Counted from the stretch's first letter, positions 1 to 23,472 are shown. The stretch is 64,000 nucleotides of DNA from Candidatus Kapaibacterium sp. (GCA_025059875.1 JANXCT010000002.1:153180-217179); one strand, 5' to 3'. Made by a program: numbers and translations. Notes: a model not told the origin generated them from the letters alone.

Positions 1-43
1 TGAGCAACTTTGCAGTTCTGGTAAACTGCAGTATTGCTACCTA

Positions 44-51
44 GCTTTGTA
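44..51 (+). promoter_or_regulatory. Candidate Bacteroidota-type sigma-A -7 element (TAnnTTTG: TAGCTTTG) 8 nt upstream of the atuA-like start codon
   Basis: Exact TAnnTTTG match at 44-51 in a comparatively AT-rich leader; TTG motifs lie about 20-30 nt upstream. Established knowledge: Bacteroidetes promoters use a -7 TAnnTTTG / -33 TTTG architecture. Purely sequence-pattern based. Confidence 0.2.
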
Positions 52-59
52 ACCAACCC

Positions 60-1415
60 ATGCGCTCCCCGATTCGCATAGCTTCCGGTCAAGGGTTTTG
101 GGGTGATTGGCTCTTGGCTCCTCTCCTGCAGGTAACCCGTGGTCCAATTGACTACCTCGTGATGGACTACCTAGCCGAGGTTACGATGTCCATCCTCCAG
201 AAGCAACGGCAGCGTGATCCTCGGCTTGGGTATGCACGAGATCTGCTCACGGTCTTCCGAGACATCGCCCCTTACTTGGTAGAACGCAACATTCGGCTCA
301 TCACGAATGGCGGCGGAGTCAATCCCATGGCCGCTGCTGAGGAGTTAGTCAAGATCGCCCATTCCGTAGGGCTACGGCAGCTCCGCATCGGTGTCGTCCT
401 CGGCGACGATTTGATGCCCCGCATTGACGAGCTCTTGGCTGCTGGCTATGAATTCCGTCACTTGGAGACGGGACAGCCCTTGCGCGAAATTCGGGACCGT
501 CTCTTAAGCGCCAATGCCTACTTCGGGGCCTTCCCCATTGTTGAAGCCCTGCGCCAAGGAGCTCAAGTGGTCGTCACTGGACGCACCACCGACACTGGCA
601 TTACCCTGGCACCGATGATCTACGAGTTCGGCTGGAAGGAGGATGACTATGACCTCCTCGCCGCCGGTGTCGTAGCAGGACACATCTTAGAGTGCGGGGC
701 TCAGGCGAGCGGAGGGAACTTCTTGGGAGACTGGACATCCTTGGACCTCGTGGAACCGGGCTTTCCAATCGTGGAAGCGTACCCTGATGGGAGCTTCATC
801 GTTACGAAGCACGAAGGAACCGGTGGAGCCGTCACCCGTGAGACCGTTGCTGAGCAGCTCCTCTACGAGATCGCGGATCCGCGTGAGTACATCACACCTG
901 AGTGTATCGCGGACTTTACCACAATCCGGTTAGAAGACTTAGGCAATAACCGCGTCCGCGTCTTTGGAATCAAAGGGCGTCCACCAACACCCTTCTACAA
1001 GGTCTCTGCTAGCTACGCTGCTGGCTACATGGCTGTGGGAACCTTGGTGTACTCTGCCCCTGGAGCGCTCCAACGGGCACAGGCTGCCGACGCCATCCTC
1101 CGCGAACGATTGCGCCGCTTGGGACTTCAGTTTGAGGAAATCCGAACGGAATTTGTCGGCTACAATGCTTGCCATGGTCCTCTGGCGAAACCGATAGAAC
1201 CCAACGAGGTCATGCTCCGAATCGCTGTCCGCTCGCCTGACTATGCAGCGGTCGATCGCTTCACGCGAGAGTTAGCACCGCTCATCCTCACTGGGCCACC
1301 TGGCGTAACGGGTTTCTCCGGTGGCCGTCCTAAGCCCAGCGAAGTGGTGGCCTACTTCCCCACCCTCATCCCGAAGGAGCTCGTCCACCACGAAGTCCGC
1401 ATCCTGGAGTTATGA
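60..1415 (+). CDS. AtuA-like (DUF1446, acyclic terpene utilization family) protein
   Basis: 451-aa ORF with uniform coding potential. The N-terminal ASGQGFWGD motif, the GGG/GxD-rich core and overall architecture recall DUF1446/AtuA proteins. Stop overlaps the start of the next ORF (ATGA). Confidence 0.55.
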   Translation: MRSPIRIASGQGFWGDWLLAPLLQVTRGPIDYLVMDYLAEVTMSILQKQRQRDPRLGYARDLLTVFRDIAPYLVERNIRLITNGGGVNPMAAAEELVKIAHSVGLRQLRIGVVLGDDLMPRIDELLAAGYEFRHLETGQPLREIRDRLLSANAYFGAFPIVEALRQGAQVVVTGRTTDTGITLAPMIYEFGWKEDDYDLLAAGVVAGHILECGAQASGGNFLGDWTSLDLVEPGFPIVEAYPDGSFIVTKHEGTGGAVTRETVAEQLLYEIADPREYITPECIADFTTIRLEDLGNNRVRVFGIKGRPPTPFYKVSASYAAGYMAVGTLVYSAPGALQRAQAADAILRERLRRLGLQFEEIRTEFVGYNACHGPLAKPIEPNEVMLRIAVRSPDYAAVDRFTRELAPLILTGPPGVTGFSGGRPKPSEVVAYFPTLIPKELVHHEVRILEL

Positions 1416-3753: not shown

Positions 3754-5207
3754 TGCGGAGGTGCCGTCTCGGTTTCTTGCCTATCTCGCTCCTTGTTCTG
3801 TTTGGCCTCTCGCTATGGGGATGCGAGACTCCAGACGTTGGGGAATTCGGCAGTGATGCACCACTGGAAGTGACACCACGAGAGGTCGACTTCAGAAATG
3901 TACGCGTAGGGCAGACAGCCGAACTATGGCTCCGCATCCGTAATCGAGCAGATTCAGCCATTGTCTTGGCTCCTTCCATCACCGGAGCTGATAAAAATGC
4001 CTTCAGCATTGCGCGACAACCCAGCGGAGCACTCCGCCCCGGCCAGAGTGATAGTCTGCTACTCCGCTTCTCCCCAACCGAAGCCCGTGTGTACCAGGCA
4101 ACACTCCTCCTTGGCGGGGACAATCCCTTGAACATCCCCTTGCGCGGGACTGGTACAACAGGAGACCGAATGGAGCTCTTGGCTGTCGTTGCCTCAACAC
4201 CGCCGGAGATCGACGGCTCCGCCTCCGACGCTGTCTGGAATGCAGCTCCACCGCTCCACCTCCAGCTCTTCCAGGTAGAGCCTACGGCCAACGATCCTCG
4301 GACTCTCTCGGCAACACTGCGAGCTGCCGTGGACAACGAGTTCCTGTACCTACTCGTGGAAGTTGCCGATCCAACCCCTCACGAAACTCCCAACATCTTC
4401 CGCTTCCGCGGTGGGGACCCTGCCTCCGACGCGAATTGGACGCTGACCACAGAGGGGCAAGATGGTCTCGGCTTCATCTTCCCGATTGGAGACCCGCAAA
4501 GCGTTCGAGGTGACAGACTTGGAGAGACCTTCGCTACCATCGGCTGTGCTGTCGCCTGCCATCCTACCGCCACTACGAACGCTTACGAAGGCGGCAGCTA
4601 CCCAACCTATGGGCGGATTGACCTCTGGTACTGGAAGGCGGGGACTACAAACCCCCAGGGCTACGCTGACGACTACATTGCCGAAGGGCGCGATGGGACG
4701 ACATTCCCTGAGGAGCGCCGTGGTGATGTAGGAAATGCGTTTGAAGAGCCCAACTATCCACCACGCGGAGCCGGTCCGCTCCTACCTATCAGCATGGCTG
4801 GCGGAGACAACGGCGGATTGGACCGACGCCGCTTCCTGTGGCAGGCTACCTCTGTACCCTTCAACCCCCGAGCTCCGAACCCAGCAACTGGTCGACCCTG
4901 GGCTGCCGGCGATGTAGTTCCAGGCTGGACCCTTCGAGGCCAAGAGCATCCCTTCTCCAGCCGTGGTGACATCCAGGCCCGCGGACGCCACGCGAGTGGC
5001 CGTTGGACCATTGAACTACGGCGCCGGCTCTCCACCGGGAAGAGTGACGATGCCTCGTTTGACCGCGGGCGCTCCGTTCCCTTCAGCCTGGCGTACTTCG
5101 ACAACACGCGCAAGTATGCCGTCTTTGAATACCTCAACCTCACCTCGGCCCCTCGCCCAGGCCACTTTGGCCCTAATCCTCCGGTCATTTGGCTACACTT
5201 GCCATAA
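3753..5207 (+). CDS. Lipoprotein with N-terminal ASH/Ig-like domain and C-terminal ethylbenzene-dehydrogenase-like (EB_dh / DOMON-like) heme-binding domain
   Basis: Lipobox LSLWGC after a hydrophobic signal. Ig/ASH-like segment (EVTPREVDFRNVRVGQTAELWLRIRN...NIPLRGTG). EB_dh-type segment (PPEIDGSASDAVWNAAPPLHLQL ... Y/W-rich). Start codon ATGA-coupled to the Rieske gene stop. Confidence 0.55.
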   Translation: MRRCRLGFLPISLLVLFGLSLWGCETPDVGEFGSDAPLEVTPREVDFRNVRVGQTAELWLRIRNRADSAIVLAPSITGADKNAFSIARQPSGALRPGQSDSLLLRFSPTEARVYQATLLLGGDNPLNIPLRGTGTTGDRMELLAVVASTPPEIDGSASDAVWNAAPPLHLQLFQVEPTANDPRTLSATLRAAVDNEFLYLLVEVADPTPHETPNIFRFRGGDPASDANWTLTTEGQDGLGFIFPIGDPQSVRGDRLGETFATIGCAVACHPTATTNAYEGGSYPTYGRIDLWYWKAGTTNPQGYADDYIAEGRDGTTFPEERRGDVGNAFEEPNYPPRGAGPLLPISMAGGDNGGLDRRRFLWQATSVPFNPRAPNPATGRPWAAGDVVPGWTLRGQEHPFSSRGDIQARGRHASGRWTIELRRRLSTGKSDDASFDRGRSVPFSLAYFDNTRKYAVFEYLNLTSAPRPGHFGPNPPVIWLHLP

Positions 5208-15455: not shown

Positions 15456-16725
15456 CGCGCTGGCTCACGCCTCTCTCTCGCACTCCCAGAGCCACGAGCA
15501 CCTGCTCAAGGATTGCGTCGTATGAAAACCGTGCAGCGTTCTCATCCGCAGCAGCTTGGCGCCACTGACAGCGCTGAGCTTCAGAAAGGGGTGCGATCGT
15601 CTGGACTGCCGTAGCAAGTGTCTCTTCAAAGCCGTGCGGCTCTTCCCAGTACCATCCCGTGCGACCTTCCTGGAGAAGGTGAAGGAGCGAAGCACGACGA
15701 GGTAACACAAGAGGAAGCCCTACTCCTAAGGACTCATTTGCTGAGATAGCCGGCTGCATCCACACACCGAGATCTGCTGCAGCCGCTAGCCGACGCGTCT
15801 GCTCCGGTGGCAAGAATGGATAGACCGCAAAGTGCTCGGGTATCGGCTGACGTTGGATCTGCTCCAGTAGCTCCCTCTGGTACCCATCCCCCAATCCACC
15901 AACCAGCACATACCGCACTGGAAGCCCGACTCGCTGCATCTTACCAACGGCAGCGATGATACGCTCAAGACCTTTTCGCGGGACAACTCGTGTGACAGTG
16001 AGGATGAGCACCTCTTCAGGCCTCACTCCAAGTTGCTCTCGAGTCTGCTGCCGCTCCAACGCGGAGAAGAAGAAGAGCTGAGGGTCATAGCCGAGCGCTA
16101 GCACTCGTGCCTTTGCCTCCAGAAGTTCTAGCTCCTCCCTATTAGCACAGCATTGCTGCAACCATTCCAGCGTTGCCGGCATATTGCAGACGAGTAACTC
16201 AGCACGGCGAATAGCACGACGATAGAACGGACGCTTCACGAGCTCAAACCCTCGATCCTGTAGCCAGCTAACAACTCGCGCCGACAATGAGTGCCGACGG
16301 CGGTACTCATGCAACTCGCTGAAGAAACACGCGATTGGCACCTGCCTCAGCTCTGCAGCCGTCAGAATTGGTACACCGAAGAGCTTTCCCACCCCCAACA
16401 GCAGAATCGCGTCAGGGCGCCACTCCACAACAGCAGAGACAACCCCACGGCTCAGCACTGCCGAGCGAAACCGAAAGGCAACCGGCAGACGCACGAGCTC
16501 GTAGCCATCCTCGCATATCCTGCCTACGGGATAAGGCCGGCGCCGTAGCCGCCGAGCACTGGAGGAGACTGCCGTGGAAGTAACTACCCGTACCGCAATC
16601 CCTTTACGGACCAAGGTCCGAGCAATCCAGACCTCCTGATACCCCACCTCGGGCATGAAGTGGCCACATACAACGGCAATTCGCATACCAAAAGCTCTCG
16701 GTAGCCTTTCGCTCCCGATGCTCAC
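15439..16725 (-). CDS. Glycosyltransferase family 4 (GT-B)
   Basis: GT-B fold motifs (MRIAVVCGHF..., C-terminal ...GVGLPLV...). Likely start at MRIAVV (16686). Confidence 0.65.
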   Translation of the reverse strand: MSIGSERLPRAFGMRIAVVCGHFMPEVGYQEVWIARTLVRKGIAVRVVTSTAVSSSARRLRRRPYPVGRICEDGYELVRLPVAFRFRSAVLSRGVVSAVVEWRPDAILLLGVGKLFGVPILTAAELRQVPIACFFSELHEYRRRHSLSARVVSWLQDRGFELVKRPFYRRAIRRAELLVCNMPATLEWLQQCCANREELELLEAKARVLALGYDPQLFFFSALERQQTREQLGVRPEEVLILTVTRVVPRKGLERIIAAVGKMQRVGLPVRYVLVGGLGDGYQRELLEQIQRQPIPEHFAVYPFLPPEQTRRLAAAADLGVWMQPAISANESLGVGLPLVLPRRASLLHLLQEGRTGWYWEEPHGFEETLATAVQTIAPLSEAQRCQWRQAAADENAARFSYDAILEQVLVALGVRERGVSQRDGKAA

Positions 16726-19352
16726 CGTTTCACGAAGAGCCGAGTCTCCACCCTCCCTCTGAGGTACACTCGGACTCCGTAGACTCCGGGTGCCCAGCCG
16801 TGGAGGTTAATGCCTGCCTTCTCCCTGCCCCTCAAGCTCTCGCGATAAACGCAGCGCCCGAGTGGATCCACAACCTCCACTGATACCACCCTCCCTCCCT
16901 CAACCAGCAGCCATACGACCTCCGTTGCAGGATTTGGCTCAAGACGCCACCGCAGAGAGCTTACCTCTTCTACGCTCGTGCGAACGAACCGATACGGATC
17001 CGAGATACTGGAGCAGCTATCCACCGTCACCTGCACGTAGTAGATGCCATCCCGCGGCGGGACGAACTCCCGGCCTGTCGCCCCAGGGATCGGTTGCTTG
17101 TTCTCATCCAGCCACTGGTTCCCTGTCAGCGCGCTCGAGACGAGCGTATCCCCGCGCTGTCCAATGACAGGCTTCGGAGGACGCGGGGCAACGGTTACAT
17201 GAACGCTATTGAGTGATCGCACCACGCCACATGCATTGCGAGCCTCCACCGTGTACCTTCCACCCTGCCAAACTCGAAGGACAGTATCCTGAGCCCTGGG
17301 AAGCGCGGTATCGTTACGGAACCACTGAAAGGCTACTCCAACCTCCCCAGCAATGCGGAGCTCTACAGTATCTCCACGGCAGAGCCGAACCCCACCTTCA
17401 GGCACAATCCTCGGCCTCCTCGGCAAGGGACGCATCGTCAGCGTAACGTTCCTCCGCCCTCGGACACTCCCACAGGCATTGTAGGCCTCCACACTGTACC
17501 GCCCCGATTGGGAAGCAGCATAGGCCGTCGCATCCTCTGCCACGACAATCGAATCACGCCACCACCGGTACCGAACCCCTGGCTGCGGCTGCAGAACGTA
17601 GAGCACAACCTGACGCCCTTCACAGAACACAGTATCGCCATCTATCTCGAGCTGCGGCTCCTGCGGACGTTGCTGAGCAGAGAGCAAGCGCCCATTATCG
17701 TTGCTGTAGGCAATCGGCTGTGAAGCTGAGACTCTGATCCGGTATTGCCCCCCAGGAGGCTGGAACGGAACGAAGACTCGCAGCCCTGTGTCTCGACGAG
17801 CCGCGACCGAATCGAGAACTAGTGGAACCTGGAAGCTTCCCCCTGCGTCGGAGAGCTCCACACGGAACATGTTGTTTGCACCAAACTCCCCGCCACGCAC
17901 ACGCCAGCGGACCAGAAGGCTGTCACCCGTACAGAGGACCGTGTCGGGCACTGCCTCCAACTCAAGGCTCAGGAGGTACCCCGATAGACGCACGAGGAGT
18001 CCATCGGCAAGTCCCGCCAGCGCCGACTGGTACGACGGAGGCTCGAGTGGGACATCGGTGCTCGTAGTACTCCCGACAAGCGCTATGTTCCCCGCGCTAT
18101 CTACGGCGATCCCCAGAGCAGCATCGCCAGCACCCCCTCCTAGTAGAAGACTCCACTGCGGCATACCCTGCCGATGGAGCTTCAGGAGGAAGCAGTCATC
18201 CCCTTCCGTAGAGCGTTGTCCTACGCCAATCTGTGGGAAATTCGAGCTGGCCGTACGTCCAGCAATGTAGAGGTTCCCCAACGCGTCCACAGCACAGCTT
18301 GTGGCGACGTCATTCTCCCCGCCGCCGAGGAAGGTCGCCCAGCGTAGCCCTCCGCTTGCTGAGAATTGGACCGCGAACCCATCCGCTCCCCCTCCAGCAT
18401 ACTGAAGCTGCCATATGGGAGTAATCGGCAAATTCTGGCTCCCTGTCATCCCTACGACGGTCACCCACCGCTCCGAGGTTACCGCGATCCCCAGGGCCCG
18501 GTCGCTCTCTGTCCCGCCATAGTAAGTAGACCAGCCCCACACGCCAAAGGGTCCAAACGAGGCAACGAAGGCATCTGTACCACCCCGCAGGACCTGCTGG
18601 AAAGCATTCCGCAGTGGGAAGTTCGAACTACTGGTCTCTCCGCAGATGTAGATGTTGCGGCGGTCATCCACACAGATCGCCGTGGCATAGTCAGGTCCGG
18701 AGCCACCGAAGTAGGTCGCCCACACCCGTGCCCCATCAGGTCGAAGCTGTAGCACAAACGCATCAGTATACCCAGCCAGTCGGTTCTGGACAGCGTTCGT
18801 GGTCACAGAAAAGTTCGTACTGCTTGTGTAGCCCACAACATTCAGCAGTCCCTGAGCATCCACCGCAACGGCTGTTGCCCCCTCCTCTCCGTTCCCACCA
18901 TAGTATGTCGCCCAAAGACGGACTCCATCAATGGAGAAGCACGCAATGAAGGCGTCGCTCCCTGCTGCTTTGGTGGACTGGAAAGCATTCGCAACGGGGA
19001 AGTCCGAACTCGCAGTCACTCCCACGACGTAAATCCTTCCTCCGCTGTCTACCGCAACCCCGAGGGCACGGTCATTGTCGCTGCCTCCTAGGTAGGTGGA
19101 CCACAAGAGAGAGCCGGAGGACGAGAACTTTGCAATAACGGCATCTTCGCGCCCCCGGTTCTGCCCCTGCCAGGCGTTGACGACCGGGAAGCTCACCCCC
19201 AAACTCCACCCAACTACCACGATTGAACCATCTGACGCTATGGCCGTTGCTCGCAGCTCATCCTGGGCTGGCGAGCCGAGATAGGTACCCCAATCAACCG
19301 TTGGCTGAGCAAAGGCCGGTAGGAAAAGGAGAAGCGTCCATGCTCTTTGCAT
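16722..19352 (-). CDS. SBBP (beta-propeller) repeat protein with C-terminal Por/T9SS sorting domain (T9SS cargo)
   Basis: More than 8 repeats of the SBBP pattern (YLGGSxxDxAxGIAVDxxGNIYVxGxTxSSxFP); Sec signal MQRAWTLLLFLPAFA. C-terminal ~80 aa (RLEPNPATEVVWL...GVYGVRVYL...) is a T9SS type-A CTD. Start set at MQRAW (19352); the track ORF extends into the tRNA. Confidence 0.7.
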   Translation of the reverse strand: MQRAWTLLLFLPAFAQPTVDWGTYLGSPAQDELRATAIASDGSIVVVGWSLGVSFPVVNAWQGQNRGREDAVIAKFSSSGSLLWSTYLGGSDNDRALGVAVDSGGRIYVVGVTASSDFPVANAFQSTKAAGSDAFIACFSIDGVRLWATYYGGNGEEGATAVAVDAQGLLNVVGYTSSTNFSVTTNAVQNRLAGYTDAFVLQLRPDGARVWATYFGGSGPDYATAICVDDRRNIYICGETSSSNFPLRNAFQQVLRGGTDAFVASFGPFGVWGWSTYYGGTESDRALGIAVTSERWVTVVGMTGSQNLPITPIWQLQYAGGGADGFAVQFSASGGLRWATFLGGGENDVATSCAVDALGNLYIAGRTASSNFPQIGVGQRSTEGDDCFLLKLHRQGMPQWSLLLGGGAGDAALGIAVDSAGNIALVGSTTSTDVPLEPPSYQSALAGLADGLLVRLSGYLLSLELEAVPDTVLCTGDSLLVRWRVRGGEFGANNMFRVELSDAGGSFQVPLVLDSVAARRDTGLRVFVPFQPPGGQYRIRVSASQPIAYSNDNGRLLSAQQRPQEPQLEIDGDTVFCEGRQVVLYVLQPQPGVRYRWWRDSIVVAEDATAYAASQSGRYSVEAYNACGSVRGRRNVTLTMRPLPRRPRIVPEGGVRLCRGDTVELRIAGEVGVAFQWFRNDTALPRAQDTVLRVWQGGRYTVEARNACGVVRSLNSVHVTVAPRPPKPVIGQRGDTLVSSALTGNQWLDENKQPIPGATGREFVPPRDGIYYVQVTVDSCSSISDPYRFVRTSVEEVSSLRWRLEPNPATEVVWLLVEGGRVVSVEVVDPLGRCVYRESLRGREKAGINLHGWAPGVYGVRVYLRGRVETRLFVKR

Positions 19353-19376
19353 CCGTTCCCCTTGCCACCGTTCTAG

Positions 19377-19450
19377 CGCGCCCGGCAGGACTCGAACCCG
19401 CAACCCCCAGATCCGAAGTCTGGTGCTCTCTCCAATTGAGCTACGGGCGC
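19377..19450 (-). tRNA. tRNA-Arg (anticodon TCG)
   Basis: Reverse complement folds as a cloverleaf: acceptor GCGCCCG/CGGGCGC, D-arm TAGCTCAATTGGAGAGAGC, anticodon loop CTTCGGA (U33, anticodon TCG), T-arm GGTTCGAGTCC. Confidence 0.8.
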
Positions 19451-19462
19451 AGCAGTGCAAAT

Positions 19463-21100
19463 TTACTCGCTTTTTTTAGCCTCCCGCATTGGAGTCACCC
19501 ATATGACCTCCTCGCGTTCCAACCGCACTGCCCCAGGAATACCTCGAACCTTGCGGACGTACTTTCGCCACGTGTAGACGACCGGTACCGATCCGGAGGA
19601 ACGCAGGCGAGAGTAGTAAGCCACAATTGCAGCTGCCTGCTCCAGAACTTCTTGCGGCGGGAGCTGTCCTTTCACCGGTCCCCGCAGAATCCCATGAGCG
19701 CCCGGTGCTCCACGGACATGGAGGAAGAGGTCATGCGGCTTCGCATAGCTAAAGGTCAGCGCATCGTTACTGTTGGCATCCTTACCGACATAGAGCGAGT
19801 AGCCATGGGGAAGGTTGAAGACCCGGAAACGCTCACCAGTTTTAAGCTGGATCTCGCGGGGCGGGAATTCCTCCCTCAGGCGCTGCGCGAGCTGGCGCAG
19901 TTGGCGCAGGGAATGAGCTTGCGCCACTTGGTCGTGGAGGTGTTGAAGCCGATCTCGCTGTTCTTCCAGCACTGGTAGTCGTTGAAGGGCATAAGAGCAG
20001 GAGTGCTCCAGACGACGCGCACGCTGGAAGTAGGCATCAGCGTTCTCCCGCAGCGTCTGCGCTGGGTTCAGAGGAATACGGTGGGGCTTCCCTTCCCAGT
20101 CAGCGAGCACGATCTCCTCCCGCCCGCGCTGATGCAGGTCCGGTTGCGACAGCAGCAAGCTCCCCCACAAGCGGTAAAGTTCGCTCCGAGAAGCCTGCTC
20201 GCACCGTGCGCGTAACTCAACACATTGATGCTCTACCTGCCGACAGTGGCGATCGATTGTCTTCAGGAGGGCTGCACGCTGCTGGCGGAATTCCTCCCAG
20301 ACGAGCGTCCGTCGGACGCGCTCAGCAACAGCTTCGTGGATGGATGTAAACGTCGCCGCTACTTCCGGATACTCCCTCAACGGCACCAACGACAGTAGTG
20401 GCGGTCCCTCCGGGCGCCGGAGGAGCAGCACTTCCGTGGAACCCATCAGCTCGGTAGTGAAGTGAAGGAGGGCTATGGCAAGGCTCTCCCGCTGAGATGC
20501 CGAGAGCTCTCCTAAGGGCATCTCCGGACTTAGTCCGCAGCGATAGCAGAGCTCCCGTGCATAAAAAGTCCCCAACTGCTGTTGACAGCTTGCTAGCGCT
20601 CGGAGAAGCGGGGTGGATTCAGGATACTGTGTCCACGAGAGCAGCTGTCTAGAGGTCTTATCCCACGACCACTGCCTCTCCTCTGTACCCTCTGTGGCTG
20701 CACCGAGCATCGCATGTGGCTTCCCCGTATCGTCCACGACGAACGCTCCACTCTGCGCCGTCCCAAAGAGGCACAAGATGAGCTGCTCTCCCGTATGAAG
20801 GCTCCAACGGACTTGTCGCTCTACGGGATGGAGCTCTACCAGCCGGATTACCTTGCCCCAGAGGCCCTCAGCCCATGGCAGTAGCGGCTGCGGTCTGCCC
20901 CACCTCTCTGGCCGGCGGAAGAATGTACTCATCCCCGGCCGCAAGTGCACTTCCACAAGGAAGGGCTCACCTGTAGGTGGCTCAATCTCTACGAAGAGGA
21001 GCGACTTGCCCTGCCGCCAAACGGCCAGGAGCCGAGCCCCACCAACGATCGAAGCAAGCTCTCCGACGAGGCGGCGAAGCGTCTCTCGGTGTGCCACCAT
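19463..21100 (-). CDS. rqcH: NFACT-family protein (RqcH/Rqc2/FbpA homolog, ribosome quality control)
   Basis: NFACT-N-like start (LVGELASIVGGARLLAVWRQGKSLLFVEI), central coiled-coil, and a C-terminal NFACT-R/DUF814 motif (YVGKDANSNDALTFSYAKPHDLFLHVRGAPGAHGILRG). 545 aa. Confidence 0.7.
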   Translation of the reverse strand: MVAHRETLRRLVGELASIVGGARLLAVWRQGKSLLFVEIEPPTGEPFLVEVHLRPGMSTFFRRPERWGRPQPLLPWAEGLWGKVIRLVELHPVERQVRWSLHTGEQLILCLFGTAQSGAFVVDDTGKPHAMLGAATEGTEERQWSWDKTSRQLLSWTQYPESTPLLRALASCQQQLGTFYARELCYRCGLSPEMPLGELSASQRESLAIALLHFTTELMGSTEVLLLRRPEGPPLLSLVPLREYPEVAATFTSIHEAVAERVRRTLVWEEFRQQRAALLKTIDRHCRQVEHQCVELRARCEQASRSELYRLWGSLLLSQPDLHQRGREEIVLADWEGKPHRIPLNPAQTLRENADAYFQRARRLEHSCSYALQRLPVLEEQRDRLQHLHDQVAQAHSLRQLRQLAQRLREEFPPREIQLKTGERFRVFNLPHGYSLYVGKDANSNDALTFSYAKPHDLFLHVRGAPGAHGILRGPVKGQLPPQEVLEQAAAIVAYYSRLRSSGSVPVVYTWRKYVRKVRGIPGAVRLEREEVIWVTPMREAKKSE

Positions 21101-21102
21101 AG

Positions 21103-21176
21103 CGCGCCCGGCAGGATTTGAACCTGCGACCCTCGGCTTAGAAGGCCGGTGCTCTGTCCAGCTGAGCTACGGGCGC
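21103..21176 (-). tRNA. tRNA-Arg (anticodon TCT)
   Basis: Reverse complement: acceptor GCGCCCG, D-arm TAGCTCAGCTGGACAGAGC, anticodon stem-loop CGGC-CTTCTAA-GCCG (anticodon TCT), T-arm GGTTCAAATCC, 3' CGGGCGC. Confidence 0.8.
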
Positions 21177-21177
21177 G

Positions 21178-23394
21178 TTAGAACTCGCGGTAGAACTCAC
21201 TCCGCCGGTCTACGATAGCAGCCCGATCCCGAACAGCGTTGTACCAGTAGTAGTACGCTGACGCCTTCGCAGTATTGTACAGCCGTCGGTAGAGTTCTGC
21301 AAACTGCTTCGTCTCCAACTGCTTTGGATCGGCTTCTTGGCGCTGAGTAACTCGGATGAGGAAGTATGCCCGCTCTCCTCGAATCGGTGGCGGGATGGTA
21401 CCAATAGGCACGCGGTAGATCATAGCCGTTACGATAGGATCGCTGCCATACCCCTGAAGGAAACCGTTTTCCTTAACCCCCGTTGCTGTCTGAACTTGGG
21501 CGCTGGGATCAATCTCCACAATCCTGGCCAGAATGTCGGCATTTTTGAGGCGCTCATAGATGCTGTCCACCCGAACCTTCAGAGCATTCAGCTTCTTTAT
21601 GCGACGGACCCGTTCTTCTATCTCTGCCCGAACGTCTGCCAATGGCTTGTAGCCTGGCTTTCGCTCATCCACAATCTGCGCGACGACGACACCATATGGC
21701 TTTAGCTCCATCGGGTCAGAGAGGCGCCCAACGGGGTTGTTGAAGGCGAATTCCGTCAATGCCCGGGAGCCGAGTACAGGAGTGGTAGCCTCAAAGAAGG
21801 CTGTCTCCACAGGGTTCCGCTTAAGCCGTCGAGCCAACGTGTCGAAGGGCACACCCTTCTCTACCTGCTGTTTGAAGCTGTAAGCCTCCCGAAAGACCTG
21901 GTTGCGGCTCGCAGTACTGAGTCCTACGGTGAACTCGATCTCGCTATAGGCGATCCGATCTGAAGACTTTGCATGGACTGCGATGATGTGGAACCCAAAC
22001 GGACTTTCAACGGGCCCCACAATGCTACCAGGCTGGGCAGCGAAAGCAGCATCTTCGAAAGGCTTGACCATCCGTCCCCGCGGGAACCATCCTAGGTCGC
22101 CTCCTCTCTCGGCCGTCCCCCGGTCTTGAGAGTACAGTCGCGCCAACTGCGCGAAGTCCTCCCCTGCCTTAGCCCGCTGTAGAATCTTCTGAGCCTCAGC
22201 GCGAGCACTATCCTTGTTCGTCCCAAAATTGATGAGGATATGGCTTGCATGGACAACCACAGTATCCCCCGGCTCCCTCCGATCAACCCGGAAGAAGTAG
22301 AACTTACCCATGAGTTCCACGGGACCAATCACTGCCCCAACGGGCTGCGTTGCCAAGTGGGAAGCCTTCTGGAGGTCTATGGCTGCAAGGGAGCTGAGAC
22401 CGTAGCTTCGGCCTTGGTGCTCAGCCATCAGCAAGGAGAAGACCGAGTCCCGCTGGGCTGCTGGAGCCCGTTCCAGTTCTGACCGGACCCGTTCCAAACG
22501 GCGCCGCAAATTTGCCGTGTCTTGGGCTGTCGGCTCCAGTGGGAAGATAACGTACTTGAGCTTACGAGCTGGCTTCTTCTGCCGGAAAGCCTCTTGGTGC
22601 TGGCGATAGTAGGCTTCGATGTCGGCATCGGTTATCGAAATCTCCTTGTCCGGAATGCGATCGATCGGGTATGCAACATAGGTAACATCGGCAGAGCTGT
22701 TCTCTACGACATATTGGCGTCTTGCATAGCTCGGAGAGACTATGCTGCCAACGAGATTGACAAGGGAGCGCATGTGCTCCCGTGTACGGCTATGGCGGAT
22801 GAAGTCCTCAATCCGGAGCAGATCCCTCTTCCATCGCTCCACCGCCTCCAGCGGATCAACACCGCTATTCGGATCAATGTACTCAGCCAACCGCTCTGGC
22901 TGAGTAACCAGCTCTATGTACCGGTCACGATGGAAAGTACCCGCGGAATCCGTAAACGGCTGCCGTATGTACTCCGGCGGGTTATCCAGCAAGATGTCCC
23001 ACAACTCTCCCCGAGTCACAGGAAAGCCAACCTTGGCCGCTTCCTGGCGCAGTAGGATCTCCTCTACGACAATGTCCCAGATGCTCTGCCGGATTCCAGC
23101 CTCGTCAATGGCAACTTCGTCCCCTGCAGCTCGGCGCTGCTGCTCTATCTGCTGCTGGACGCGTTCGTTGAAGTCTGCATACCGGATGTCCTCTCCGTTG
23201 ACTTCACCAACAGCCGCCGTCGCCAGGTTTCCGCGAAGATGGAGGACATTTTGCAGATCGGCGTCCGTCGCCACCATGAATGCAATGAATACGACGGCAA
23301 ACAACGCCAGGAGGTACGGCGAGACCTCTCGCATTCGTGAAATGACGCCCATGAAAGCCCGCTGTGTAGTCAAGAAACCTTCCAGGGCTTGCAA
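21178..23394 (-). CDS. ppiD: Periplasmic chaperone / peptidyl-prolyl cis-trans isomerase (PpiD/SurA-like)
   Basis: N-terminal membrane anchor ([15 protein letters not shown]), SurA-N-like chaperone region, parvulin rotamase motif (HASHILINF...GGDLGWF...FGFHII). Start may be the internal Met at 23352. Stop codon abuts the tRNA-Arg(TCT). Confidence 0.7.
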
Positions 23395-23472
23395 AGTTAC
23401 GAAGGACCCATCGGACGCATGCCAACTACTACACTAACCGCAGGTTGAGAGCTGTGTACTTCCGGTGGGTTG

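What the first reader, a model, noticed from the sequence alone, without database searches (positions are those of the whole stretch)
19377..21180. rqcH-like NFACT gene wedged between two tRNA-Arg genes with 2-nt and 12-nt spacers, abutting ppiD
On the minus strand the order is ppiD stop, 1 nt, tRNA-Arg(TCT), 2 nt, ATG of the NFACT/RqcH-like gene ... its stop, 12 nt, tRNA-Arg(TCG). A protein-coding gene embedded in a tRNA array with essentially no spacer implies co-transcription and RNase P/Z processing that liberates the mRNA. Any translation-initiation signal must lie within the tRNA 3' end. RqcH-type proteins work with tRNAs in ribosome-associated quality control (Ala-tailing in Bacillus), so the tRNA-sandwich arrangement is an unusual, possibly regulatory, coupling.
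Basis: seen in the sequence. Interest (0 to 1): 0.5.

Follow-up and report, generated by a model that had tools for sequence, protein, structure and literature searches.

The report
tRNA-punctuated rqcH gene in Kapabacteria
In a clade of hot-spring relatives of Bacteroidota, the ribosome-rescue gene rqcH starts 2-7 bases after a tRNA gene that abuts the stop codon of the upstream gene, so its mRNA is probably cut free by tRNA-processing enzymes and translated almost without a leader, as in mitochondria; this is inferred from sequence only.

Summary
On the minus strand the order is: ppiD-like stop, 1 nt, tRNA-Arg(UCU), 2 nt, ATG of a full-length RqcH/NFACT homologue, TAA, 12 nt, tRNA-Arg(UCG).

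The layout is kept in 12 loci of one Kapabacteria clade (NFACT identity down to 46%, synonymous sites saturated). The tRNA-to-ATG spacer is always 2-7 nt and variable in sequence, the start is always ATG, and CCA is never encoded. Outgroup rqcH and ppiD loci have no flanking tRNAs.

The genome uses the Bacteroidetes-type promoter box TAnnTTTG. Each locus has only two conserved copies. One lies before ppiD. The other overlaps the rqcH stop codon, 7-11 nt before the second tRNA.

So ppiD, tRNA-Arg(UCU) and rqcH are most likely one transcript, and the downstream tRNA has its own promoter. To yield both a tRNA and an rqcH mRNA, that transcript must be cut inside the 2-7-nt spacer, which gives a nearly leaderless mRNA. 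This resembles mitochondrial tRNA punctuation.

I found no evidence for a functional RqcH/tRNA-Arg link. There are no expression data. I rate it a new variant of a known kind, of moderate interest.

The parts
23392..23399 (-). P1: Bacteroidetes-type sigma-A -7 box TAACTTTG. Predicted transcription start about 23387, giving a 35-nt leader before the ppiD ATG at 23352.
   Evidence: Exact TAnnTTTG match. A box is conserved about 2220 nt upstream of tRNA1 in all 10 loci that reach that far. The box occupies -12..-5 according to PMC9723704 and PMC6847099.
21178..23352 (-). PpiD-like parvulin peptidyl-prolyl isomerase gene (724 aa). Its stop TAA is at 21180..21178.
   Evidence: Pfam SurA_N_2/SurA_N_3 plus Rotamase domains. 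The [10 protein letters not shown] start is conserved in 10 loci. dN/dS is 0.05-0.07.
21177..21177 (-). 1-nt spacer between the ppiD stop codon and the tRNA 5' end, which is the predicted RNase P site. The range across the clade is -1 to 6 nt.
21103..21176 (-). tRNA-Arg(UCU) gene, 74 nt including discriminator G. CCA is not encoded. No promoter box of its own.
   Evidence: ARAGORN. Rfam 70 bits. The anticodon stem differs on both strands between lineages and still pairs (GCAGC...GTTGC in L006/L085 against ATCGGC...GCCGA; read from the alignment). No TAnnTTTG upstream.
21101..21102 (-). 2-nt spacer (CT) between the tRNA discriminator and the rqcH ATG. This is the predicted RNase Z cut region and would be the whole 5' leader of the processed rqcH mRNA.
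   Evidence: The 12 clade loci have spacers of 2, 2, 5, 3, 4, 5, 6, 4, 5, 7, 6 and 5 nt, always starting with C and otherwise variable.
19463..21100 (-). rqcH / NFACT-family gene (545 aa), ATG 21100, stop TAA 19465..19463.
   Evidence: Pfam NFACT_N plus NFACT-R_1. Full-length profile match to B. subtilis RqcH, E 6e-64. All homologues start at the same column, M[VI]AHRETL. dN/dS is 0.15-0.17.
19458..19465 (-). P2: -7 box TAAATTTG whose TA(A) is the rqcH stop codon. Predicted start about 19453, 3 nt before the mature 5' end of tRNA-Arg(UCG).
   Evidence: Exact TAnnTTTG in 12/12 loci (TAAATTTG or TAATTTTG), although the rest of the 12-16-nt spacer varies. In the window, 10 of 15 TAnnTTTG matches sit just 5' of a gene. 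For 9 of 14 non-tRNA hits P = 1.6e-14.
19377..19450 (-). tRNA-Arg(UCG) gene, 74 nt. CCA is not encoded.
   Evidence: ARAGORN. Rfam 68.9 bits.
16722..19352 (-). Downstream gene for a secreted beta-propeller/Ig-like protein (876 aa), starting 24 nt after tRNA-Arg(UCG). Probably co-transcribed from P2 and by read-through.
   Evidence: Pfam SBBP plus Ig_7. Spacer. Present in WIN, L001-L004, L081, L082 and L213. Absent in L005, L006, L084 and L085, where a glycosyltransferase gene follows.
21274..21303 (-). Weak candidate internal promoter in the ppiD 3' end: TTTGCA-18-TACAAT, next to a local peak of synonymous-site conservation (about 21229-21279).
   Evidence: Sigma-70-type scan hit, not enriched over shuffles. 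Synonymous identity 0.80-0.83 against a mean of 0.61, sd 0.08. TACAAT in 8/10 loci. It does not match TAnnTTTG.

Best explanation
The locus is a tRNA-punctuated transcription unit.

Shown:
- The PpiD-like gene, tRNA-Arg(UCU) and rqcH lie head to tail with spacers of 1 and 2 nt (-1..6 and 2..7 nt across the clade).
- The only conserved sigma-A promoter boxes are one before ppiD and one overlapping the rqcH stop codon.
- Neither tRNA gene encodes CCA.
- rqcH is a full-length RqcH homologue under purifying selection, and Met1 is its only conserved start.

Inferred:
- RNA polymerase starting at the ppiD promoter transcribes ppiD, the tRNA and rqcH as one RNA.
- RNase P cuts at the tRNA 5' end. This leaves the ppiD mRNA ending at or 1 nt after its stop codon.
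- An RNase Z-type endonuclease cuts after the discriminator, which is the established route for tRNA precursors without an encoded CCA.
- One precursor must yield both a functional tRNA and an intact rqcH mRNA, so the 3' cut has to fall in the 2-7-nt spacer.
- The rqcH mRNA therefore begins with a 5' monophosphate and only 2-7 nt before the AUG. It must be translated by leaderless-type initiation, probably inefficiently, which would suit a low-abundance rescue factor.
- Its 3' end is set 12-16 nt after the stop codon by RNase P cleavage at tRNA-Arg(UCG).
- That second tRNA, and the genes after it, are also driven by their own promoter, whose -7 box uses the rqcH TAA.

The arrangement arose once, at the base of this thermophilic Kapabacteria clade.
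For: - Coordinates and tRNA calls.
- Conservation in 12 loci, with variable spacer sequence and spacer lengths that are not multiples of 3, so the tRNA is not part of the ORF.
- ATG start in 12/12, and N-termini aligned from residue 1 with mainly third-position changes.
- Residue 12 aligns with residue 12 of B. subtilis RqcH.
- dN/dS 0.15-0.17, with dS saturated between distant members.
- TAnnTTTG is the working promoter box here. 9 of 14 non-tRNA hits lie 10-45 nt before the ATG of a long ORF (P = 1.6e-14). The implied leaders of 28-41 nt match the 33-nt mean in F. johnsoniae (PMC6847099).
- Only two conserved boxes per locus, at about -2220 and at the rqcH stop.
- No terminator-like site inside the unit.
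- Control set of unrelated tRNA-Arg(TCT) genes: 66/80 encode CCA, and 0/74 has a credible ATG ORF within 12 nt.
- Another gene in the window (AtuA) has a box that predicts a leader of only about 6 nt, so very short leaders seem to be tolerated in this genome.
- The first 50 nt of the predicted processed mRNA fold more weakly than shuffles in 8/10 loci (mean z +0.62; weak support).
Against: - There are no RNA data. Co-transcription, the cleavage sites and the mode of initiation are all inferred.
- In model bacteria even 1-5 extra nt before the AUG strongly reduce leaderless initiation. In Caulobacter the relative efficiency is about 0.24 at 2 nt and 0.08 at 7 nt (PMC8459731).
- Leaderless mRNAs are only about 5% of transcripts in a flavobacterium (PMC9723704).
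- Promoters for alternative sigma factors, or degenerate sigma-A boxes, inside ppiD cannot be excluded. One weak candidate exists.
- P2 lacks a -33 TTG element.
- I could not check that this genome encodes RNase Z or a CCA-adding enzyme, because only 64 kb are available.
- A short spacer can stay short through mutational inertia, so its conserved length does not prove selection.
Confidence: 0.55

Rival explanations
1. rqcH is translated from the unprocessed precursor by coupling to ppiD translation. A ribosome terminating at the ppiD stop codon, 0-1 nt from the tRNA, unwinds the 5' strand of the acceptor stem. That frees the 3' acceptor strand plus the spacer (10-15 nt) as a landing pad for initiation at the rqcH AUG. 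tRNA maturation and rqcH translation would then be alternative fates of each transcript.
For: The ppiD stop abuts the tRNA in every locus (-1 to 6 nt), so a terminating ribosome must cover the tRNA's 5' part. This genome does not rely on SD pairing, so a short single-stranded stretch might suffice. This route avoids the poor efficiency of 2-7-nt leaders (PMC8459731).
Against: The stretch that would be freed is G+C-rich (CCUGCCGGGCGCG). It has none of the upstream A residues that favour initiation in Bacteroidota (PMC6847099). The D, anticodon and T arms would still form a bulky fold 10-15 nt from the AUG. The tRNA-Arg(UCU) gene has no promoter of its own, so processing of this precursor must be efficient enough to supply the tRNA. 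No conserved alternative pairing between the flanks was found.
Confidence: 0.15
2. tRNA-Arg(UCU) and rqcH are transcribed mainly from an unrecognised promoter inside the 3' end of ppiD, for example the TTGnnn-17-TACAAT element at 21303..21274, rather than from the ppiD promoter. tRNA excision would still define the rqcH 5' end.
For: There is a sigma-70-like hit. Synonymous-site conservation peaks at ppiD codons about 692-708. TACAAT is kept in 8/10 loci and TTTG in 9/10. Chlorobaculum, a related lineage, uses a TA[ATC][ATC][AT]T -7 box (bioRxiv 10.1101/172254), which TACAAT fits.
Against: It does not match the TAnnTTTG box that marks the other promoters in this window. Sigma-70-type hits are not enriched over shuffles (3 found, 2.6 expected). 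The conservation peak is modest (z about 2.9, one of four peaks). The peak lies in a Tyr/Trp-rich peptide (YYYWY), where codon bias alone could explain it.
Confidence: 0.2
3. The layout is a frozen accident of one lineage-specific rearrangement in a compact genome. It has no regulatory meaning and the spacer length is not under selection. rqcH is simply expressed well enough by whatever route. This is compatible with the processing mechanism above, but denies it any adaptive role.
For: Outgroup rqcH loci (L007-L080, L086/87) and outgroup ppiD loci (L088-L091) have no adjacent tRNAs, so the arrangement arose once. All junctions in the locus are short, and many co-directional ORFs in the window abut or overlap on a crude ORF map. 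Spacer lengths of 2-7 nt are what small indels acting on a short ancestral spacer would give.
Against: The layout survived while synonymous sites became saturated and while the neighbourhood changed on both sides (the SBBP gene is present or absent, and the genes before ppiD differ). No lineage in 12 has acquired a normal 28-41-nt leader.
Confidence: 0.35
4. RqcH is placed between tRNA-Arg genes because it works with them, for example in Arg-specific tailing or in sensing Arg-tRNA supply.
For: RqcH-type proteins bind tRNA (own knowledge). The N-terminal 155 residues are too divergent for the Pfam NFACT_N model, which matches only residues 156-411. The B. subtilis 'EIM' tRNA-binding motif is an insertion relative to this family's profile.
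Against: More distant FCB-group rqcH genes have no flanking tRNAs. The two tRNAs have different transcriptional roles. rqcH is not enriched in AGA/AGG or CGA/CGG codons. The D/E-R motif is retained (R95 is invariant). The divergence also covers outgroups that lack the tRNAs.
Confidence: 0.04

Closest known systems
Mitochondrial tRNA punctuation model (Ojala, Montoya and Attardi 1981; reviewed in PMC3790967 and PMC4493943)
   Same: The stop codon abuts, or in L082 overlaps, a tRNA 5' end. The tRNA 3' end abuts the next start codon. The tRNA carries no encoded CCA. RNase P and RNase Z excision is what defines the mRNA ends. The resulting mRNA has essentially no 5' leader.
   Different: This is a free-living bacterium with a normal promoter-rich chromosome. 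Only one mRNA is punctuated. The leader is 2-7 nt rather than 0-3. There is no evidence for stop-codon completion by polyadenylation. Excision is inferred here, not shown.
E. coli mixed mRNA/tRNA operons: secG-leuU (PMC2241853) and thrU-tyrU-glyT-thrT-tufB (own knowledge)
   Same: A protein gene and a tRNA gene are co-transcribed, and RNase P separates them.
   Different: In secG-leuU the tRNA is the last gene and is followed by a terminator. In the tufB operon the mRNA follows the tRNAs after a spacer of about 100 nt with a normal ribosome-binding site (own knowledge). Neither gives a leaderless mRNA or a stop codon flush with the tRNA.
Bacterial leaderless mRNAs (Mycobacterium PMC4633059, Deinococcus PMC4007540, Caulobacter PMC8459731) and MazF-generated leaderless mRNAs in E. 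coli (PMC5001579)
   Same: Translation has to start at an AUG at or near the 5' end, without an SD sequence. The AUG is strictly kept (12/12). In the MazF case the leaderless 5' end is made by an endonuclease.
   Different: Classical leaderless mRNAs are primary transcripts that start at the A of the AUG. Here the end would be made by tRNA 3' processing, would carry a monophosphate, and would keep 2-7 nt.
B. subtilis RqcH (PDB 7AQC, 7AS8, 7OPE)
   Same: Same domain order and a full-length alignment (E 6e-64). NFACT-R domain. The Arg of the DR motif is conserved (R95).
   Different: About 25 residues shorter. The N-terminal lobe is divergent (it has no Pfam NFACT_N match). DR is ER. The EIM motif is not alignable. 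Activity is untested.
Bacteroidetes sigma-A (sigma-ABfr) promoters, -33 TTTG / -7 TAnnTTTG (PMC6847099, PMC9723704)
   Same: Both boxes in the locus match TAnnTTTG. P2 also fits the stricter TAHHTTTG. The spacing to the gene or tRNA is as expected.
   Different: P2 has no -33 TTG. It overlaps a stop codon and lies only 7-11 nt before a tRNA. No TSS data exist for this phylum-level lineage.

Membership tests
tRNA (Rfam RF00005), both genes | Cloverleaf covariance-model score above the gathering threshold, with a readable anticodon | tested here: met
   70.0 and 68.9 bits against a gathering score of 29. ARAGORN gives Arg-TCT and Arg-TCG. The anticodon stem differs on both strands between lineages and still pairs (read from the alignment).
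RqcH / NFACT family | NFACT-N, coiled-coil middle and NFACT-R domains in one chain, collinear with characterised RqcH | tested here: met
   Pfam NFACT_N (residues 156-411) and NFACT-R_1 (425-518). The family profile aligns at 12-539 with B. subtilis RqcH 12-563, E 6e-64.
RqcH / NFACT family | Conserved tRNA-binding motifs of NFACT-N (DR and EIM in B. subtilis; own knowledge of the mutational studies) | tested here: inconclusive
   The Arg is invariant (R95), but the Asp is Glu in this clade. EIM appears as an insertion relative to the family profile.
RqcH / NFACT family | Binds obstructed 50S subunits and adds C-terminal Ala tails | not testable with these tools
   Needs biochemistry or proteomics.
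tRNA-punctuated transcript (mitochondrial type) | The upstream ORF ends at the tRNA 5' end and the downstream ORF starts at the tRNA 3' end | tested here: met
   -1..6 nt and 2..7 nt in 12 loci.
tRNA-punctuated transcript (mitochondrial type) | One primary transcript spans ORF, tRNA and ORF (no promoter or terminator between them) | tested here: inconclusive
   No conserved TAnnTTTG box between the ppiD promoter and the rqcH stop, and no terminator-like site. One weak sigma-70-like candidate lies inside ppiD. No RNA data.
tRNA-punctuated transcript (mitochondrial type) | The mRNA ends are produced by RNase P and RNase Z cleavage | not testable with these tools
   Inferred from CCA-less tRNA genes (12/12 here, against 14/80 in the control set).
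Leaderless mRNA | AUG start codon at or within a few nt of the 5' end, with no SD | tested here: inconclusive
   ATG in 12/12. The predicted leader is 2-7 nt. The anti-SD duplex is -2.5 kcal/mol, no better than random. The real 5' end is not mapped.
Leaderless mRNA | Low secondary structure around the start codon | tested here: inconclusive
   8 of 10 orthologues fold more weakly than shuffles, mean z +0.62. The effect is small.
Bacteroidetes sigma-A promoter (P2, before tRNA-Arg(UCG)) | -7 box TAnnTTTG at -12..-5 | tested here: met
   12/12 loci, 7-11 nt before the tRNA. The motif is validated within the window.
Bacteroidetes sigma-A promoter (P2, before tRNA-Arg(UCG)) | -33 TTTG/TTG element 17-23 nt upstream of the -7 box | tested here: not met
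   No TTG in that range in the window or L002/L003 (read). The element is weak in F. johnsoniae too (PMC6847099).
Integrative mobile element at a tRNA gene (considered) | Integrase, a partial tRNA direct repeat (att) and atypical composition | tested here: not met
   Both tRNAs are complete and have different anticodons. GC is 0.59-0.62 across the locus, like the flanks. The enclosed gene is a housekeeping rqcH.

The most novel reading that the evidence does not exclude
A free-living bacterium uses true mitochondrial-style tRNA punctuation as a control point. Excision of tRNA-Arg(UCU) would be the only way to make the rqcH mRNA translatable, so the level of the ribosome-rescue factor would track tRNA-processing capacity. 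The same cut would leave the ppiD mRNA ending exactly at its stop codon (inside it in L082). That mRNA would then be a chronic source of non-stop messages, which rescue systems such as the RqcH encoded next door must clear.
Probability: 0.12. Interest if true: 0.75.

Novelty: new variant of a known kind. Interest (0 to 1): 0.5.

Why it matters
tRNA excision is the textbook way mitochondria make their leaderless mRNAs. In bacteria, the documented mixed tRNA/mRNA operons keep ordinary leaders. A conserved bacterial locus with a stop codon flush against a tRNA, and a start codon 2-7 nt after it, would show the same logic working on a normal bacterial chromosome. It would be a natural test case for several questions: how ribosomes that do not use Shine-Dalgarno pairing (FCB group) start on processed, 5'-monophosphate, near-leaderless RNAs; how an apparently promoter-less tRNA gene is supplied from the 3' end of an mRNA; and how a promoter can be built onto a stop codon. 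It is also a practical warning for annotation pipelines, which tend to disfavour starts that have no leader. The payoff is moderate, because everything beyond the DNA layout still has to be shown on RNA.

Tried and rejected
1. A processing stem formed by the tRNA flanks. In the window, the ppiD 3' end pairs with the rqcH 5' coding region (z = -2.5). Across 10 loci only a 6-bp piece persists, with no compensatory change. Rejected.

2. An SD-like signal in the tRNA 3' end. The duplex energy is -2.5 kcal/mol, and the genome-wide start sites show no SD enrichment (mean -3.33 against -3.35 for random sequence). Rejected. I had taken the GGGGA before the downstream gene as evidence that this genome uses SD sequences, and I withdrew that reading.

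3. A primary leaderless transcript from a promoter inside the tRNA. The -12..-5 window before the ATG is CCGGGCGC-like in every locus, so it cannot be a TAnnTTTG box. Rejected.

4. A downstream alternative start. No internal Met is conserved. Rejected.

5. A mobile-element insertion. Rejected.

6. An ancestral ppiD-tRNA-tRNA array into which rqcH was inserted. Outgroup ppiD genes are followed by SQS_PSY genes and have no tRNAs. Not supported, and the origin of the arrangement remains unknown.

7. Arg-codon enrichment in rqcH. None.

8. The metallo-beta-lactamase gene near ppiD in relatives as RNase Z. It is a YtnP-like lactonase.

It was useful as a control but gave no new clade members.

10. 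Literature searches for a bacterial precedent returned only mitochondrial work and secG-leuU. The library is incomplete, so this is not proof that no precedent exists.

Full report
**Observation**

ARAGORN finds exactly two tRNA genes in the 64-kb window, both on the minus strand. They are tRNA-Arg(TCT) at 21176..21102 and tRNA-Arg(TCG) at 19450..19376. Rfam's tRNA model confirms them at 21176..21103 (70.0 bits) and 19450..19377 (68.9 bits), against a gathering score of 29.

Reading the minus strand gives this order:
- the 724-aa upstream ORF ends with TAA at 21180..21178;
- one base (21177) follows;
- then the tRNA, ending in discriminator G at 21103;
- then CT;
- then the ATG at 21100 of a 545-aa ORF, which ends with TAA at 19465..19463;
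- then 12 bases;
- then the second tRNA;
- 24 bases later, the ATG (19352) of a large secreted-protein gene.

Neither tRNA gene encodes CCA.

**Identity of the genes**

The upstream protein has SurA-N and parvulin rotamase domains, so it is PpiD-like. The middle protein has NFACT_N and NFACT-R_1. The downstream protein has SBBP beta-propeller repeats and an Ig_7 domain.

A profile of the middle protein's family aligns over its whole length with B. subtilis RqcH (12-539 against 12-563, E 6e-64), so 'RqcH-like' is justified. The identical protein is on record from a Candidatus Kapabacteria MAG. NCBI places that group within Bacteroidota, in the FCB group.

**Conservation**

A scan of one genome per species, using a profile of the NFACT protein, returned 80 loci.
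- The six closest (49-90% identity; hot-spring MAGs such as 'bacterium HR21') all have tRNA-Arg(TCT) before the gene and tRNA-Arg(TCG) after it.
- None of the other 74 (34% identity or less) has a flanking tRNA.
- Contigs that encode further homologues added L081, L082/L083, L084, L085 and L213, all with the same layout. The nearest outgroup (P0015, 34%) lacks it.

Across the 12 clade loci:
- the distance from ppiD stop to tRNA is -1 to 6 nt (in L082 the G of TAG is tRNA position 1);
- the tRNA-to-ATG spacer is 2, 2, 5, 3, 4, 5, 6, 4, 5, 7, 6 and 5 nt;
- that spacer always begins with C and is otherwise unrelated in sequence;
- the start codon is always ATG.

Because the spacer lengths are not multiples of three, the tRNA cannot be part of the reading frame.

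All homologues begin at the same alignment column (M[VI]AHRETL). The DNA differences after the ATG are mostly at third codon positions, and no internal Met is conserved. The gene is under purifying selection (dN/dS 0.15-0.17, against 0.05-0.07 for ppiD). Synonymous sites are saturated between the more distant members.

PpiD homologues show an identity gap (73% or more inside the clade, 49% or less outside). Four outgroup ppiD loci are followed by squalene/phytoene-synthase genes and carry no tRNA. The arrangement therefore arose once, at the base of this clade. Its origin is not explained.

**Is the junction unusual?**

I scanned metagenomes for the 3' half of this tRNA. That gave 80 loci from unrelated bacteria.
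- 66 of the 80 encode CCA.
- Among the 74 with at least 300 nt downstream, the only ATG-initiated ORF of 100 aa or more within 12 nt (L128) is an Arg/Ala-rich low-complexity artefact.
- Four GTG/TTG ORFs of 105-203 aa start 4-10 nt after the discriminator and overlap an encoded CCA. I did not examine them further. Such ORFs are common by chance in G+C-rich DNA.

**Promoters**

The FCB-group housekeeping sigma factor recognises a -7 box TAnnTTTG that occupies -12..-5 (PMC6847099, PMC9723704). The window has 15 exact matches.
- Nine lie 10-45 nt upstream of the ATG of a long same-strand ORF, and a tenth lies 7 nt before tRNA-Arg(TCG).
- For nine of the 14 non-tRNA hits, the binomial probability is 1.6e-14.
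- The implied leaders are mostly 28-41 nt, close to the 33-nt mean in F. johnsoniae.

In every clade locus there are exactly two conserved boxes.
- One is about 2220 nt upstream of the first tRNA. In the window it is TAACTTTG at 23399..23392, 39 nt before the ppiD ATG.
- The other is formed by the rqcH stop codon plus the next five bases (TAAATTTG or TAATTTTG). It is present in 12/12 loci, although the remaining 7-11 nt before the tRNA vary.

So the downstream tRNA has its own promoter, built onto the rqcH stop codon. Its predicted start is about 3 nt before the mature tRNA end in the window (19453) and 3-7 nt across the clade.

The upstream tRNA and rqcH have no recognisable promoter other than that of ppiD. 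No terminator-like site lies within the unit.

There is one weak alternative: a sigma-70-like TTTGCA-18-TACAAT at 21303..21274, next to a modest peak of synonymous-site conservation in ppiD. It does not fit the box used elsewhere in this genome.

**Translation signals**

Pairing of the 17 nt upstream of 45 gene starts with the anti-SD is no stronger than for random sequence from the window (mean -3.33 against -3.35 kcal/mol). The value for rqcH is -2.5. These starts come from a crude ORF map, so the estimate is rough.

This lineage therefore seems to resemble other Bacteroidota in not using SD sequences (PMC6847099). What sets rqcH apart is not the lack of an SD but the lack of any single-stranded leader. 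The 13 nt before the spacer are the G+C-rich 3' strand of the acceptor stem.

One other gene in the window, an AtuA-family gene at 60..1415, has a box at 42-49 that predicts a leader of only about 6 nt. Very short leaders therefore seem to be tolerated.

The first 50 nt of the predicted processed rqcH mRNA fold slightly less stably than shuffled sequences in 8 of 10 orthologues (mean z +0.62). This is weak support.

**Mechanism**

The DNA facts above are shown. The following steps are inferred.
- Transcription from the ppiD promoter runs through the tRNA and rqcH.
- RNase P cuts at 21177/21176, so the ppiD mRNA ends at its stop codon.
- tRNA precursors without an encoded CCA are matured by an RNase Z-type endonuclease that cuts after the discriminator (established for B. 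subtilis; own knowledge).
- Exonucleolytic trimming from the 3' side would have to destroy the 1.6-kb rqcH message first. So any cut that preserves both products must fall in the 2-7-nt spacer.
- The rqcH mRNA then carries a 5' monophosphate and 2-7 nt before the AUG. This calls for leaderless-type initiation. A 5' phosphate is known to favour that mode (Giliberti et al. 2012, cited in PMC9031893).
- The efficiency would be low. Extrapolating the Caulobacter fit gives about 24% at 2 nt and 8% at 7 nt of a true leaderless mRNA (PMC8459731). Low efficiency is plausible for a low-abundance rescue factor.
- RNase P cleavage at the second tRNA would set the rqcH 3' end 12-16 nt after the stop codon.

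**Rivals**

- Initiation on the unprocessed RNA, helped by the terminating ppiD ribosome melting the acceptor stem (0.15).
- A contribution from an internal promoter in ppiD (0.2). tRNA excision would still be needed.
- The view that the layout is a frozen accident with no adaptive role (0.35). This is compatible with the mechanism.
- A functional RqcH/tRNA-Arg link (0.04). I found nothing to support it. rqcH is not enriched in the cognate Arg codons, outgroup rqcH genes lack the tRNAs, and the two tRNAs have different transcriptional roles.

**Comparison with known systems and novelty**

The nearest analogue is mitochondrial tRNA punctuation. The nearest bacterial systems are the mixed operons secG-leuU (PMC2241853) and tufB (own knowledge). 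Those keep normal leaders or place the tRNA last.

Five full-text searches found no bacterial case of a tRNA-punctuated, near-leaderless mRNA. The library is incomplete.

I class this as a new variant of a known kind.

Noticed in passing
window 42-60 (+), gene 60..1415: The AtuA-family gene (Pfam E 2e-151) has a TAGCTTTG -7 box at 42-49. That predicts a transcription start near 54 and a leader of only about 6 nt. It is a second candidate short-leader mRNA in the same genome.
   Followed up: partly
L082 3919-3922 (ENA ERZ1669417 contig): The ppiD stop codon TAG shares its G with position 1 of tRNA-Arg(TCT). RNase P cleavage would leave the mRNA ending in UA, an incomplete stop codon of the kind seen in animal mitochondria.
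   Followed up: partly
window 21229-21303 (-): There is a local peak of synonymous-site conservation in the ppiD 3' end (0.80-0.83 against a mean of 0.61), next to a sigma-70-like TTTGCA-18-TACAAT. It could be an internal promoter, or just codon bias in a YYYWY peptide.
   Followed up: partly
window 20740-20830 (-), RqcH residues about 90-125: The DR tRNA-binding motif of B. subtilis RqcH is ER here (E94, R95). The EIM motif appears as an insertion relative to this family's profile. Pfam NFACT_N does not match the first 155 residues. The N-terminal lobe is unusually divergent in FCB-group RqcH.
   Followed up: no
window 21041-21210 (-): The minimum-energy fold pairs about 25 nt of the ppiD 3' end with the rqcH 5' coding region, enclosing the tRNA (z = -2.5). 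Across 10 orthologous loci only 6 bp persist, with no compensatory changes, so the pairing is probably fortuitous.
   Followed up: yes
whole window, 45 gene starts: There is no Shine-Dalgarno enrichment upstream of start codons (mean duplex energy -3.33 against -3.35 kcal/mol for random sequence). Leaders predicted from -7 boxes are mostly 28-41 nt. The translation and transcription signals are Bacteroidota-like in this Kapabacteria genome. The starts come from a crude ORF map.
   Followed up: partly
L088-L091; L081, L082, L212, L213 upstream of ppiD: In outgroup Kapaibacteria and Ignavibacteria, ppiD is followed by squalene/phytoene-synthase (SQS_PSY) genes in the three loci that extend past it (L089-L091). 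In most clade loci ppiD is preceded, on the other strand, by a YtnP-like lactonase gene and an SbnI-like gene. In the window, L001 and L002 a PALP (TrpB-like) gene directly precedes ppiD; in L212 it lies between ppiD and those two genes.
   Followed up: no
L083 about 3930-3950 (GCA_964450085.1, CAYVCN010000002.1): This public MAG contig has a run of N inside the ppiD end and tRNA-Arg(TCT). That splits ppiD into two called ORFs and hides the tRNA from predictors. It is an assembly gap, not a biological difference.
   Followed up: yes
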